From Octopus vulgaris (Eukaryota), in contig OX597818.1 of NCBI GenBank assembly GCA_951406725.2, positions 35,960,001 to 36,024,000 of the forward strand: a stretch of DNA of 64,000 nucleotides, written 5' to 3'. The notes below the pieces were generated by a model. That model made no database searches. It was not told the origin of the DNA and saw only the letters and a program-made list of their open reading frames with translations. Positions 21,690 to 61,500 of the stretch are shown one piece after another. How positions within the stretch are numbered: position 1 is the stretch's first letter; every line of letters begins with the position of its first letter. The position numbers were made by a program, and so were the translations under genes.

Positions 21690-21880
21690 TGTACCGTTGG
21701 CGAATTTTTTCCTCCGTCTTCCCTTCTTTGGATCTTTCCATTTCCTATGTTTCTGACGAAGTGTTCCGCTCGAAACGTTAAACCCTCCTTTCCTTCTTTC
21801 CTGAGCGTCCAGTAATACTATATTTGTTCCACGTCGTCGCGTTGTTGTGTTTTCTCTTTGTGTTTCCATGTTTGGATTAA
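21690..21880 (+). mobile_element. Family D1 short PLE-derived repeat with hammerhead motif
   Basis: GTTT-CTGACGA-A-GTGT(TCC)GCTC-GAAA-CG-TT-AAAC at 21749-21783 (stem II mutated); shared downstream CCTGAGCG..TAATAC block. Confidence 0.65.
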
Positions 21881-22451
21881 CTATATATATATATCTATAC
21901 ATATATATATCTAGAGAGAGAGAGAGAGATGGAGAGATAAATAGATAGGTAAGTAGTGAGTGAAAGTGAGAGAGAGAAGTACATACGGCATACATGCACG
22001 CATACGCGTACATATAAATACTAATACTTTTATTGTATAGATAATTTCGAAAATGTGAACCGAACTCAGTGGAAGAGTTAGATGTAGTAATACCCATAAC
22101 GATATGATATAGAGAAAAGTTTCGTTTAGATGTATACCGATTGTACTCAGAATAATTGTCATTTACGAATCACTGACAGTAGATGTATTTCATACAGAAA
22201 AAAAAAAAACTTTTAAGAAGCGGCCCGGCCTCAACAATAGATATGAAATATCACACATATGTTCTTATGCGGATAAATATGTACATACGCTAATCACTGT
22301 CCTGCAAGAAAATTGAAAACCGCCTCTCAGATATAAAGGCATACATTCCATATCATCTCTTTCGCACACTTCTTTTCATACCTTTGATACTGCTTGCTTA
22401 TACCAATAAAAACCAAAAAAATATTTTATAAATATATACATATGAACATAT

Positions 22452-22864
22452 GGCGCAGGAGAGGCTGTATGGTAAGTAGCTTGCTTACGAACCACATGGT
22501 TCTTGTTTCAGTCCCACTGCGTGGCACCTTGGGCAAGTATCTTCTACTATAGCCTCGGGTCGACCAAAGCCTTGTGAGTGGATTTGGTAGACGGAAACTG
22601 AAAGAAGCCTGTCGTATATATGTATATATATATATATGTGCATGTGTGTTTGTGTGTCTGTGTTTGTCCCCCCAACATCACTTGACAACTGATGCTGGTG
22701 TGTTTGCGTCCCTGTAACTTAGCAGTTCGGCAAAAGAGACCGATAGAATAAGTACTGGGCTTACAAAGAATAAGTCCTGGGGTCGATTTCCTCGACTAAA
22801 GGCGGTGCTCCAGCATGGCCACAGTTAAATGACTGAAACAAGTAAAAGAGTAAAAGAGTAAAAG
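22452..22864 (+). mobile_element. SINE family B, full length
   Basis: Colinear with the 1020 copy. Confidence 0.9.
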
Positions 22865-24324
22865 TATATATACTTATATACATACGTATATATACACATA
22901 TCCATATACATATCTATATATGTAGGTGTGTATATATCTATGTATATAATATATAGTATGTATATACATACATATATGTGTGTGTGCATTTAAATGGAGT
23001 AGATGGAAAATATACGCATGCGCCAGTACACGCACGTGCACATAAAGATATATATGAGTGTTTGCGAGTGCTCGTTAATATGTGTGGGGTGGCGGCGAAT
23101 GTAAATTCATTTCTCATTTAATTCCCGTCTTTTACAAGTATGAATTCTTGAAATTATATCCAAGTGACTTAATCTTACTTTCACTGTTCTAAGTTACCTC
23201 CCCTGATACAGTTGGACGCTATTTCATTTTAAGACCACAATACCGTCCATTTTTGGAACTTTTCTTCTGCCATGCTTGTTGCATCGTCAATTTCTCATTG
23301 ACTGACGTATTGTCTACGCATATAAGATCGCACAATTTCCTGCGTCCAACTGGCATGCGCCTATAATACTTTATTCTATCTTTAGTACAATATACACTCC
23401 ACACACCCACACCCACACACACATTTGCACACACAGACACATGCCTATTACATATATGTATATATATAGACCTGTTTTACTATTCTCGCCCTTTACCTGC
23501 TCACCATTAAGGACTTTACCACTTCCAGACTTTGTATTTCTATGCTTTCTACTTTGTCTGTCTATCTGTATGTCTGTTTGTCTGTCTGTCTGTCTCTGTC
23601 TCTGTCTGTCTGTCTGTCTCTCTCTCTCTCTCTCTCTCTCTCGAGCTTCCTGTCTCTCGCTCTCTCTCTCTCTTCTCGCTATATATATATATATATATAT
23701 ATATATATATATATATATATATATATTCTATATATATATATATTCATATATATATATTCATATATATATATATATATATATATATACACACACATATCCA
23801 TATGCATATATATATATATATATATATATATATATATATATATATATATGTTCATATATATACATATATAGATATATAGATATATATATATATATATATG
23901 TTCATATATATACATGTATAGATAATATATAGATATATTATATACATATATATATATATATATATATATATATATATATGAATATGTATGTATGTGTGTA
24001 TATATATATATATATATATATGTGCGTGTGTGTGTATTATGTATGTATCTCGCTTACAATGTCTGTTTGGCGAGGTAACGGCTTTAATGGAAGCCATAAT
24101 TAATATGAGAGCTTGTGCTGATTAACTGAATACGTTGTCACGCATATCAGTTCGAAACTGACATATCAACTGATTTTAATTAATTCAGACGGTAAGTCAA
24201 AATTTGTGAGTATGAGTTCAAATATCAGTCACGACCGAGCATTCTTTATGCTACATTTTGCTACGTTCCTCAGTAGTACATCGGAGAAGATAACTTGCCA
24301 TGTACCCACACTTTTACATTCTTA

Positions 24325-24547
24325 TTTCTTTATTACCCACAAGGAGCTAAACATAGAGGGGACAAACAAGGACAGAGGAAGGGATTAAGACGATTACATC
24401 GACCCCACTGCGTAAATGGTACTTAATTTATCGACCCAGAAAGGATGTAAGGCAAAGTCGACCTCGGCGGAATTTGAACTCAGAACGTAACGGTAGACGA
24501 AATACCGCTAAACATTTTGCCCGGTTGCTAACGTATCTGCCAGCTCG
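24325..24547 (-). mobile_element. SINE family A with 19 bp flanking direct repeat
   Basis: CCACACTTTTACATTCTTA at 24306-24324 and 24548-24566. Confidence 0.9.
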
Positions 24548-25369
24548 CCACACTTTTACATTCTTAACGAACAAAATTCATCGCAGTCAAATTGATTATA
24601 ACATACCGACAGAGCTTCAACGCTCTTCTAGGCCCTTTAGAATTGCTATGTGTTTGTTGTGTGTTTGTGTCTGTGTTTGTCCCCCTAGCATTGCTTGACA
24701 ACCAATGTTGGTGTGTTTACGTCCCCGTCACTTAGCGGTTCGGCAAAAGAGACCGATAGAATAAGTACTGGGCTTACAATGAATAAGTCCCGGGGTCGAT
24801 TTGCTCGACTAAAGGTGGTGCTCCAGCATGGCCGCAGTCAAGGGACTGAAACAAGTAAAAGAGTAAGAGTATATGAACACATTATCTCTGTGGTAACCTC
24901 AAGAGAAATTCTCATTTTGTGTGATAGACAACAGATGCATTAAACGGTTTCCTAGACCATATGTTAAATTGGCCCAAACATGTAAAGATATCGATCTGTC
25001 TTGCAGAAGAGCAACAAAGTATTACAAACTTTATTTGGACAGCATGAATTTGGCAGCTGATGTATAATTCCCTGCTAGCCACTCCGGATATTACAATTTA
25101 CATTAAGCCCTTCGCTCCCTATGGAGTATAGGCCACTGTTCTCGACTGTGGGCTTTTGCCTTTTTCAGTCATCGATGCTTCTGTAACTTAGCGTTTTTCT
25201 TTTCTAGGGCCCTATGCAAACTCACTTTTACCTCTGGGAAGAGATGGGCCATATCAGTCTAACCTGTATTCTTTGAACTATCTAGCATGAAGGCAATCCC
25301 AGGAGCTTGCACTCCGCCGGCATTGCTCTCGGAGTCACCGAGTTCTGCAATATTATCTTATTTTCTTAG

Positions 25370-59269: not shown

Positions 59270-60330
59270 TCTTTTATTCTTTTACTTGTTTCAGTCATTT
59301 GGCTGCAGCCATGGTGCGCACCGCCTTTAGTCGAGAAAATCAACCCCAGGACTTATTCTTGTAATCTTAGTACTTATTCTATCGGTTTCTTAGGCCGAAC
59401 CGCTAAGTTACAGGGACGTAAATCGGTTGCCGAACGATGTTGGAGAACCAACACAGACACACAAACATATACATACAAACGAAAATGCATGCATACATAC
59501 ATACATACATACATACATACATACATACATACATACATACACATACATACATACATACATACACACACACACGACGAGCTTCGTTCAGTTCCCGCCAGCC
59601 AAATCCACTCACAAGTCTTTAGTCAGCTCGAGACTGTAGTAGAAGGCACTTGCACTAGGTGCCACGCAATGGGACTGAACCCGAAAATATGTGGTTGCTA
59701 TGCAAGCTACTTACCACACAGCTACTCCTGCACCTGTGTATATTTAAATATAATATGGTTCTGGTTTCAGTCCCACTGCTTGGCACGTTGAGCAAGTGTC
59801 TTCCACTGTGTAGCCTCGGGCCAGCCAAAGCCTTGTGAGGGGATTTGGTAGATTGAAACTGAAAGAAACCCGTCGTCTCCTTGTTTCTTTCTGTGTTCCT
59901 TTCTGTGGAAGAGCGTAGGCTCGAAACGTTAAAGACATTTACCCTTCCCGAGCGTTAAACTAATGCATCTGTTTGTTGTCTACACCACCTGTCTTCGTCT
60001 TTTGTTTTTTTTGAGAATTCCCCTATATATGTATATATATATATATATATATATATATATATATATATATATATATACATGCTTGCGTATGTGTGCGTGT
60101 TTATCTGTGTGTTCGTATCTGTGTTTGTTCCCCACCCATCACATGGCAACAGATGATGGTGTATTTAGGTCCTCGTAACTTAGCGGTTCGGCAAAAGACA
60201 TCGATAGAATAAGTGCTAGGCTTGCAAAGAATAAGTTGTGAGGTTTTCGATTTCTTTGACTAAAATCCCTTAAGTTGATGCTCCACCATGACCGCAGTCA
60301 AATGACTGAAATATTTAAAAGAATAAAAGA
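59270..60330. mobile_element. Head-to-head family B SINEs (59270-59735 minus; 59750-60330 plus), the latter interrupted by a family D2 hammerhead repeat (59875-60025)
   Basis: CTTT-CTGTGGA-A-GAGC(GTAG)GCTC-GAAA-CG-TT-AAAG at 59899-59934 lies between the B halves. Confidence 0.8.
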
Positions 60331-60419
60331 ATATATATATATATATATATATATATATATATTGTTGTGTGGGACCATAAGGAAAAGATACCTTTTGTTT
60401 TTGAAATCAGCTGTCCTCA

Positions 60420-60780
60420 AGTCATCAAATTGAGACCTATAATAGCAGGTCCCGCATGCGAATCCCATCGCCTCAATAACTTTTTAGATACCCTCTTAAA
60501 ACCATTCCTCAAGCATGTCAAAATCTATATAAGGGACGACCTGGATATGCTCAATCACCTTCATGAAACAATATACAAAAACACCCTACTAGTCTCCTTC
60601 GATGTAGTCAACTTCTATTCAATATCCCCACAACCTAGGAATAGAAACAATTCAGTTCTGGCTAGAGAATTTCACCATCGAACCCCTACATCGCACCAAT
60701 AAAGAACTCGTGATAGAAGGGCTAAAATTCATCTTGGAGAATAACTACTTCGTCTTCAAAGACAACTTATATCTTTGCAA
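60420..60780 (+). pseudogene. Penelope-like reverse transcriptase fragment
   Basis: KLRPIIAGPACESHRL...LLKPFL...YIRDDLDML...LVSFDVVNFYS, then a frameshift to ELVIEGLKFILENNYFVF. Confidence 0.8.
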
Positions 60781-61314
60781 AGATACACTTTCGGCGTTAT
60801 ACACATTATTATTGGTGCAGCAAGATACATAGCATCCTATTTAGAGCAAAGTATGGTTGAACTTGGGTTCTTAATGAAAAAATGAAAATCCTTAAATTCA
60901 TACACTACAAATGGTCACGATATCTGCAAGAACTTCGTAAGATTTAACGGATGAGAAACAAAACAAAATGCTTTCCTTCAAAACCTTGCTGCCAAATAGA
61001 TGACCGGTCAAAATTTAGTCTAAATTAAAATAGAAAGAAAAGACATACACACATACATACATACATACATACATACATACATACATACATACATACATAC
61101 ATAAATACATACATACATACATACATACATACATACATACATACATACATACGTACGTAGTACATACATACACAAACATAGATACATACATACATACTTA
61201 CGTACGTACATGCACACACACTCATATATACATACATACATACATACATACATACATACATACATACATACATACATACATACATACGTACGTACATGTA
61301 ACCACATCTGCATT

Positions 61315-61500
61315 GTTGGCGATTTTCTTCCTCCGTCTTCCTTTCTATTGGACTTTCCTCTGTTTCTGAAAAAGAGCGTTTGCTCGAAACATTAAACCAT
61401 ATTTCTTTCCCTGCCTGAGCGTCTGCTAATACTTTCCATGTACCACGTCCTCATGTTGTTGTTTATTTTTTTGTTTGTTCTTCTCTTTTGGATTTACTGC
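61315..61500 (+). mobile_element. Family D1 repeat with degenerate hammerhead
   Basis: GTTT-CTGAAAA-A-GAGC(GTTT)GCTC-GAAA-CA-TT-AAAC. Confidence 0.6.

What the first reader, a model, noticed from the sequence alone, without database searches (positions are those of the whole stretch)
21690..61500. Dispersed hammerhead-bearing mini-element family with a subfamily-fixed non-canonical core (retrozyme-like)
Seen: seven roughly 150-190 bp copies (cores at 21753, 37231, 37943, 38819, 44271, 59903, 61366), mostly ending next to TA-rich tracts. They share TTT-core-A-GAGC-loop-GCTC-GAAA-CG-T-H-AAA. Subfamily D1 has CUGANGA-like cores. All four D2 copies have CUGUNGA (A6 to U), while position 7 varies (A, C, A, G) as expected for the free N7. 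D2 copies are young enough to sit inside a Helitron and a SINE. Established: A6 is normally conserved and few natural core variants are known. Inference: a mobile non-coding PLE-dependent family using a variant hammerhead; a candidate helper-type RT fragment is at 60420-60780.
Basis: partly seen in the sequence, partly recalled or inferred. Interest (0 to 1): 0.75.

Follow-up and report, generated by a model that had tools for sequence, protein, structure and literature searches.

The report
Penelope retrotransposons with broken-core hammerheads
These short repeats are the tail ends of a jumping gene with over 15,000 copies in this octopus-like genome; its self-cutting RNA motif has a fixed change in a normally invariant core letter yet stays conserved elsewhere, so it likely cuts only weakly, which is untested.

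Summary
The seven copies are real, but they are not a retrozyme family. They are 5'-truncated 3' ends (pseudo-LTRs) of Neptune-like Penelope retrotransposons that insert at (TA)n. Four complete units carry a U6 hammerhead at both ends of an RT + GIY-YIG ORF. The minimal hammerhead in such repeats is known since 2014.

What is new is the core. A6U is fixed in D2: 15,153 exact U6 matches against 550 non-U. The oldest D2 copies keep A6. Along the U6 series only N7 and H17 vary (2 of 34 columns, against 40 of 85 in the flanks). D1 is not canonical either: 71 of 100 listed D1a copies carry U4C. Both changes hit the CUGA U-turn. Copy 5' ends do not pile up at the cut site, but cluster about 65 nt upstream of the core.

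Best reading: a weakened, still selected dimeric ribozyme (0.55). Rival: a non-cutting cis-element (0.3). The RT fragment at 60343-60790 belongs to another family. This scan noted U4C and A6C Penelope families in other genomes (unchecked notes).

The parts
21671..21881 (+). D1a pLTR copy (5'-truncated PLE 3' end); core CUGACGA at 21753, stem II damaged; starts at the D1 hot spot TCAAAATG, ends at (TA)n
37187..37356 (+). D1a pLTR copy of the U4C subfamily; core CCGACGA at 37231, H17 = C, U-U mismatch in stem I (subfamily trait)
37868..38063 (+). D2 pLTR copy; core CUGUAGA at 37943; starts at the TCGCC-ATG hot spot; one stem I change
38787..38948 (+). Older D2 pLTR copy; core CUGUCGA at 38819; C11.1 changed to A
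44217..44392 (+). D2 pLTR copy; core CUGUAGA at 44271; inserted in a Helitron-like element on the minus strand
44268..44301 (+). Type example of the A6U minimal hammerhead: stem I UUU, core C3-A9 (44271-44277), extra A, stem II GAGC/GCUC with loop GUAG, GAA, palindrome ACGU (44294-44297), H17 at 44298 (predicted cut after it), stem I AAA
   Evidence: matches the metazoan min-HHR consensus in the supplement of PMC4209133 except at position 6
59876..60023 (+). D2 pLTR copy; core CUGUGGA at 59903, motif intact; inserted in the internal (TA)n tract of a SINE-like repeat
61296..61497 (+). Old D1b pLTR copy; core CUGAAAA at 61366 (G8 lost), palindrome CpG decayed
60343..60790 (+). Frameshifted RT fragment of an unrelated PLE family; not part of D1 or D2
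   Evidence: 24% identity over 70 aa to the D2 RT, E 0.007; 52% to a separate fragment in L359

Best explanation
The seven repeats are 5'-truncated 3' ends (pseudo-LTRs) of sister Neptune-like Penelope retrotransposon families that insert at (TA)n, and each holds a minimal type I hammerhead whose changed CUGA turn (A6U in D2, U4C in much of D1) likely leaves only slow, dimer-dependent cleavage that is still under selection. Shown: D2 unit = pLTR, about 700 nt of 5' UTR, RT + C-x4-C-xx-C linker + GIY-YIG ORF, pyrimidine-rich 3' UTR, pLTR, TATATA; two hammerheads 4.1-4.4 kb apart in tandem units; U6 fixed; N7 and H17 the only polymorphic positions. Inferred: the element's endonuclease nicks (TA)n; reverse transcription starts at the RNA 3' end about 95 nt below the hammerhead, reads through the uncut (or religated) motif and usually stops early. 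Many copies end at a preferred site that would fit a pLTR promoter start. The ACGU palindromes of two motifs would pair to form stem III. Inferred: strong cutting would destroy the template, so weak cores are tolerated or favoured, while some residual cutting is still needed.
For: Nested 5' truncations running into the ORF. Four complete units with U6 at both ends: L407, L408, L410, L421, pLTR identity 92-98%. RVT_1 E 2.5e-7 on L411 (above the Pfam cut-off); GIY-YIG E 0.005 on L407 (below cut-off). 122 protein homologues at E <= 1e-20; the listed ones are 726-1358 aa. D1b and D1a run into related EN ends at 42-48% identity. U6 15,153 vs 550. U6 in 66 of 69 copies chosen by the tail alone. No variant at position 6 above 5% in contigs of four runs with four organism labels, whereas N7 and H17 vary. 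Constraint: 2 of 34 vs 40 of 85 polymorphic columns, Fisher p 1e-5; the two variable columns are the catalytically free ones, and no lineage has G17. Stem I pair 4 covaries, G-C in D1 and C-G in D2. Old CUGAUGA copies are basal; a single U6 origin is not rejected, p-AU 0.23. Natural A6C cleaves slowly, and U4C still permits viroid infectivity (PMC3088659; PMC7151607).
Against: No cleavage was measured. There is no genomic footprint of cutting: 0 of 86 solo copies and 1 of 82 upstream pLTRs start within 3 nt of the bond. TA-joined starts exactly at the bond number 7 loci, against 6 at a control site of equal microhomology. In 51 of 90 tandem junctions the upstream hammerhead is whole. Loop 2 is also invariant in D2, so the constraint goes beyond catalysis. 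U6 favours an alternative rod that hides the palindrome (pair probability 0.3-0.95 vs <= 0.17). In a deep scan all single U-turn changes gave low activity (PMC9901934). The youngest D1a lineage also has a stem I mismatch. The constraint test is inflated by slippage in T-rich flanks and by related copies. Nothing shows that U6 itself is favoured.
Confidence: 0.55

Rival explanations
1. The motif no longer cuts. The hammerhead-derived hairpin is kept as a cis-acting signal (binding or priming site for the element's RT/endonuclease, or an RNA stability element), so the catalytic U-turn is free to decay.
For: Two sister lineages fixed different U-turn changes and each amplified to more than 10,000 copies. 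No 5' ends at the bond. Loop 2 invariant. Both variant lineages have a predicted fold that sequesters ACGU. Naiad PLEs spread without a canonical hammerhead (PMC8557442). pLTR sequences sufficed for mobilisation in trans in a rotifer (PMC3846280).
Against: The only free positions are N7 and H17, H17 never fixes G, and G8, G12, A15.1-U16.1 and the palindrome stay fixed. That is the pattern catalysis predicts. N7 changed about five times, so the rod pairing at 7 is not conserved. Cleaved RNAs may simply not be copied, so a missing footprint is weak evidence.
Confidence: 0.3
2. Solo pLTRs act as a SINE-like non-autonomous mini-element: about 200-nt transcripts from a pLTR promoter are copied in trans. 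This is the surviving part of the first reader's idea and can coexist with the best explanation.
For: 26 of 86 tail-selected copies start in one 12-nt window at TCGCC-ATG, 8 at one base, against 1-8 in eight neighbouring windows. D1 copies often start at TCAAAATG. Short copies far outnumber unit 5' junctions (22,475 tail matches vs 181). D. virilis Penelope has an internal promoter and starts in the upstream LTR (PMC2377424).
Against: The same hot spot appears in upstream pLTRs of full units (13 of 82), so an RT stop or TA microhomology could explain it. The window was chosen after seeing the data. No diagnostic site private to short copies was sought. Every subfamily checked has long, ORF-bearing copies. 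No tandem arrays were seen in the loci read.
Confidence: 0.1
3. The core changes are neutral decay in a motif that no longer matters; the apparent conservation reflects GC-rich sequence beside fast-changing T-rich flanks.
For: Flanks are low-complexity and prone to slippage. A single master lineage fixes whatever it carries (ladder tree).
Against: Subfamilies are only about 80-93% identical over 150 nt that include the motif, yet 32 of 34 motif columns are monomorphic, including its A- and U-runs. The stems and GAAACGU are the same in D1 and D2, whose endonucleases share under 50% identity.
Confidence: 0.05

Closest known systems
Minimal hammerheads (min-HHR) in pLTRs of metazoan Penelope-like elements (Cervera and de la Pena 2014, PMC4209133; read parts 1-2 of 4 and passages of supplement file 2, file 1 not searchable)
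   Same: Type I, U-rich 5' flank, extra nucleotide after A9, G10.1-C11.1, palindromic stem III with no loop, short stem I, mostly solitary copies from truncated PLEs, two per full unit; low in vitro activity reported.
   Different: Their consensus is CUGANGAH, and the core variant they describe is U3-A8. Here whole lineages carry A6U or U4C without a visible compensating change. Stem II is only 4 bp.
Neptune/Nematis-type EN+ Penelope-like elements (features from Craig et al. 2021, PMC8557442; passages read)
   Same: C-terminal GIY-YIG with two Cys inside the motif, CX2-5CxxC linker, DKG motif, pLTR partial tandems, 5' inversions, (TA)n bias.
   Different: That paper states canonical HHRs are universal in such PLEs; these are non-canonical. 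Neptune vs Nematis was not resolved.
Non-LTR retrozymes (Cervera and de la Pena 2020, PMC7229834, passages; Li et al. 2026, bioRxiv 10.64898/2026.07.22.740005, part 1 of 5)
   Same: Type I hammerhead, 150-450 bp scale, derived from PLE pLTRs.
   Different: Retrozymes are non-coding tandem repeats, mostly with canonical hammerheads. These copies are dispersed, variably truncated ends of a coding element.
Natural core variants A6C (phage Bcep176) and U4C (viroid) (Perreault 2011, PMC3088659, section 8 and passages; Naghdi 2020, PMC7151607, passages)
   Same: Same two U-turn positions; low but detectable activity; A6C prefers Mn2+.
   Different: Those are single instances in full hammerheads. Here the change is A6U, in a minimal dimer-type motif, fixed in over 15,000 copies.

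Membership tests
EN+ Penelope-like element (Neptune/Nematis type) | Single ORF with RT followed by C-terminal GIY-YIG endonuclease | tested here: met
   Colinear RT then EN in most long D2 copies, frameshifted in those read; RVT_1 above cut-off, GIY-YIG below cut-off
EN+ Penelope-like element (Neptune/Nematis type) | CX2-5CxxC linker and CCHH motif in the endonuclease; DKG motif | tested here: met
   C-x4-C-xx-C linker, two Cys between the GIY and YIG equivalents, downstream His residues, DKG all read in L407/L413; features as
EN+ Penelope-like element (Neptune/Nematis type) | pLTR partial tandems and 5' inversions | tested here: met
   Four pLTR-ORF-pLTR units; 181 unit junctions; fold-back 5' junctions
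EN+ Penelope-like element (Neptune/Nematis type) | Insertion bias for (TA)n | tested here: met
   3' ends abut (TA)n in nearly all printed copies; not counted against a null
EN+ Penelope-like element (Neptune/Nematis type) | RT phylogeny places it in Neptune rather than Nematis | not tested
   No named reference PLE proteins were on hand
PLE minimal hammerhead | Type I order, extra base after A9, G10.1-C11.1, palindromic stem III, location in the pLTR | tested here: met
PLE minimal hammerhead | Core CUGANGA | tested here: not met
   D2 CUGUNGA; D1a mostly CCGACGA. Met only in old D2, part of D1a and most D1b
PLE minimal hammerhead | Self-cleavage as a dimer | not testable with these tools
   Needs an assay; genomic 5'-end footprint negative
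Non-LTR retrozyme | Non-coding unit with no RT/EN of its own | tested here: not met
   The unit is the 3' end of a coding PLE
Non-LTR retrozyme | Head-to-tail tandem repeats of 150-450 bp, each with a hammerhead | tested here: not met
   No such array among the window copies or the loci read; no genome-wide array search was run
Non-LTR retrozyme | Unit-length linear and circular RNAs | not testable with these tools
   Only assembled contigs were offered

The most novel reading that the evidence does not exclude
Penelope hammerheads in these lineages have been turned from ribozymes into non-cutting RNA signals. Two sister families each broke the catalytic U-turn (A6U, U4C) and then became among the most successful repeats of the genome, while the rest of the fold stayed fixed because the element's own protein needs it. 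That would answer what hammerheads do in Penelope elements and be a natural case of a ribozyme fold kept without catalysis.
Probability: 0.3. Interest if true: 0.72.

Novelty: new variant of a known kind. Interest (0 to 1): 0.45.

Why it matters
The role of hammerheads in EN+ Penelope elements is stated to be unclear (PMC8557442). This genome offers a natural series: an old A6 master, then successive U6 masters that changed N7 about five times, and a sister family polymorphic for U4 and C4. Assaying four or five natural motifs would show whether cutting is needed, merely tolerated or selected down. It also shows that CUGANGA-based descriptors miss tens of thousands of PLE hammerhead motifs in one genome. 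I found no report of a natural A6U core in searches. Lunse et al. 2017 on PLE hammerhead variants was not available and may cover it.

Tried and rejected
Rfam scan of the window: no hammerhead family among the 150 listed of 273 matches at E <= 1. The repeat finder was swamped by microsatellites. The RT-D2 join in L010 first suggested a Naiad-type C-terminal RT. Rejected: 29 other copies of that RT do not continue into D2, and most run on into a C-terminal EN and a different, canonical-core min-HHR. A Hydra-like EN piece upstream of a D1b copy (L301) is separated by a TA tract and was rejected as a link. Window RT fragment as helper: rejected. An apparent step of 5' ends at the cut site (35 of 41 classifiable loci at 0 to +13, by eye) vanished once A/T microhomology was controlled (21 vs 12 loci in matched A-runs, two-sided p about 0.16 by my arithmetic). 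Dimer folding gave no clean active dimer as the minimum-energy state and was uninformative. Sequencing runs: no RNA holder listed, contigs only, so no evidence on expression or ends. No U6 pattern match in metagenome contigs. A phage search was irrelevant and blank. Pfam gave no significant match for the Helitron-like pieces. Lunse et al. 2017 is not held.
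Full report
Observation. The seven cores are at the stated positions on the + strand. Read as a minimal type I hammerhead, the 44271 copy gives stem I UUU/AAA, core C3-A9 CUGUAGA, an extra A, stem II GAGC/GCUC, G12-A14, the palindrome ACGU and H17 at 44298. This fits the metazoan min-HHR consensus of Cervera and de la Pena except at position 6. 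Only 44271 and 59903 are free of copy-specific damage; 37231 carries its subfamily's traits. The window is G000:C5:35960001-36024000 in a 2.8 Gb assembly. 'Octopus-like' is my inference from size, contig number and recalled repeat types.

What the element is. Relatives of the D2 copies share the 3' end (...CTCTCCC then TATATA) but start at different points. Extending 5' gave nested truncations that run through a pyrimidine-rich 3' UTR into a GIY-YIG domain, a C-x4-C-xx-C linker and an RT. Upstream of the ORF lie about 700 nt of 5' UTR, a fixed junction (181 matches) and a second copy of the same 3' end. Of 20 long loci fetched, four (L407, L408, L410, L421) have a U6 hammerhead on both sides of RT and EN, 4105-4384 nt apart. 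D1b and D1a also run into related EN ends in the same orientation: four of 30 D1b loci at 42-48% identity and one of 30 D1a loci at 46%, behind a long CA-rich UTR. These are the features of Neptune/Nematis-type PLEs. Of 89 D2 copies chosen only by an 18-nt tail motif, 16 are truncated within or below the hammerhead. The window RT fragment is 24% identical to the D2 RT and belongs elsewhere.

The core variants. In the D2 context, U6 has 15,153 exact matches and other letters 550. Among the first 100 of those 550, I counted 71 C, 20 A and 9 G, as expected mostly from decay after insertion. In the tail-selected sample U6 is in 66 of 69 ungapped motifs; 16 copies without the motif and 4 gapped ones were set aside. 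N7 is A 22, U 30, C 13, G 4. Contigs from four runs with four organism labels show no variant above 5% at position 6. D1 is not simply canonical. Among the first 100 of 16,427 D1a matches I counted 71 CCG, 26 CUG and 3 CCA at positions 3-5, while four control CpG sites decay 3-6 times each way. So about three quarters descend from C4 masters and about a fifth from U4 masters. D1b is old and mostly canonical, with a C4 subgroup (384 matches). U4 and A6 both belong to the CUGA U-turn, where all single changes gave low activity in a deep scan.

History and constraint. Trees of the 3' ends were built with positions 4, 6 and 7 masked (100 of 224 copies; 42). They split D1 from D2 at 100/100. The four CUGAUGA copies lie at the base of D2, unresolved with three or four old U6 copies. 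Above them is a ladder of U6 subfamilies in which N7 goes U, C, G, A, C, U. One origin of U6 is not rejected (p-AU 0.23). In 72 of 88 tail-selected copies, 2 of 34 motif columns are polymorphic (N7, H17) against 40 of 85 flank columns (Fisher p 1.1e-5; upstream flank from 67 copies). Caveats: the flanks are T-rich, copies are related, and loop 2 is also fixed. Stem I pair 4 is G-C in D1 and C-G in D2. The result is that the motif stayed under selection after A6U. It does not show that U6 is itself favoured.

Is it cut in vivo? If cut RNAs served as templates, 5' ends would pile up after H17. They do not: 0 of 86 solo copies, and 1 of 82 placed upstream pLTRs out of 90 examined of 181. Genome-wide TA-joined starts give 7 loci at the bond and 6 at a matched control 7 nt upstream (counted by eye). 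In 51 of 90 junctions the upstream motif is whole (a few placements there are spurious). Instead 26 of 86 solo copies and 13 of 82 upstream pLTRs start at TCGCC-ATG, about 60-80 nt above the core. This would fit a pLTR promoter like that of D. virilis Penelope, or an RT stop. Integrated copies therefore come from uncut or religated RNA. Folding of natural copies predicts that U6 pairs with A15.1 in a rod that hides the palindrome (probability 0.3-0.95 vs <= 0.17 for A6 or C6 copies), and that the youngest D1a lineage has its own occluding helix.

Mechanism and verdict. Shown: identity as PLE pLTRs, fixation of A6U, prevalence of U4C, continued constraint, no cut-site footprint. Inferred: target-primed reverse transcription at (TA)n, dimer formation through ACGU, weak residual cleavage. 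I put weak but selected cleavage at 0.55 because the free positions are exactly those that catalysis leaves free, and natural A6C and U4C ribozymes keep low activity. A non-cutting cis-element gets 0.3. The element class and the motif are known. The fixed A6U core I did not find in print, with Lunse et al. 2017 and supplement file 1 of PMC4209133 unseen. Earlier notes of this scan report U4C and A6C Penelope families in other genomes (unchecked), so the pattern may be common. It is a new variant of a known kind; interest 0.45.

Noticed in passing
L032-L060 (e.g. L045, L053): A separate (TA)n-ending PLE family with RT, Cys linker and C-terminal GIY-YIG carries a canonical-core min-HHR (CUGAAGA, stem II GGAAU/AUUCC, palindrome AUAU). 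It would be a natural positive control.
   Followed up: partly
window 12107-12176, minus strand: Weak match (72% over 81 nt, E 1e-6) to the tail of the old D2 subfamily; possibly an eighth, decayed copy.
   Followed up: no
window 44090-45435, minus strand: Helitron-like element with a 3' hairpin + CTAG near 44095-44125 and broken ORF pieces; the D2 copy lies about 90 nt inside its 3' end.
   Followed up: partly
window 7631-8404: A 387-nt inverted repeat with no spacer whose arms each hold a near-identical tRNA gene (7672-7753 minus, 8282-8363 plus; anticodon UGA read from the Rfam alignment).
   Followed up: no
L345-L356, upstream of the D1a hammerhead: The U4C D1a subfamily carries a 3' UTR of more than 1.5 kb made largely of degenerate CA repeats, so some apparent microsatellite tracts in this genome are element sequence.
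   Followed up: partly
L462: A copy joins sequence about 40 nt above the core directly to about 8 nt below the cut site, deleting the hairpin; this would fit RT skipping across a folded stem.
   Followed up: no
L002, L004, L067, L120, L317, L344: D1 and D2 ends often sit side by side in one TA tract, as expected for a shared target.
   Followed up: no
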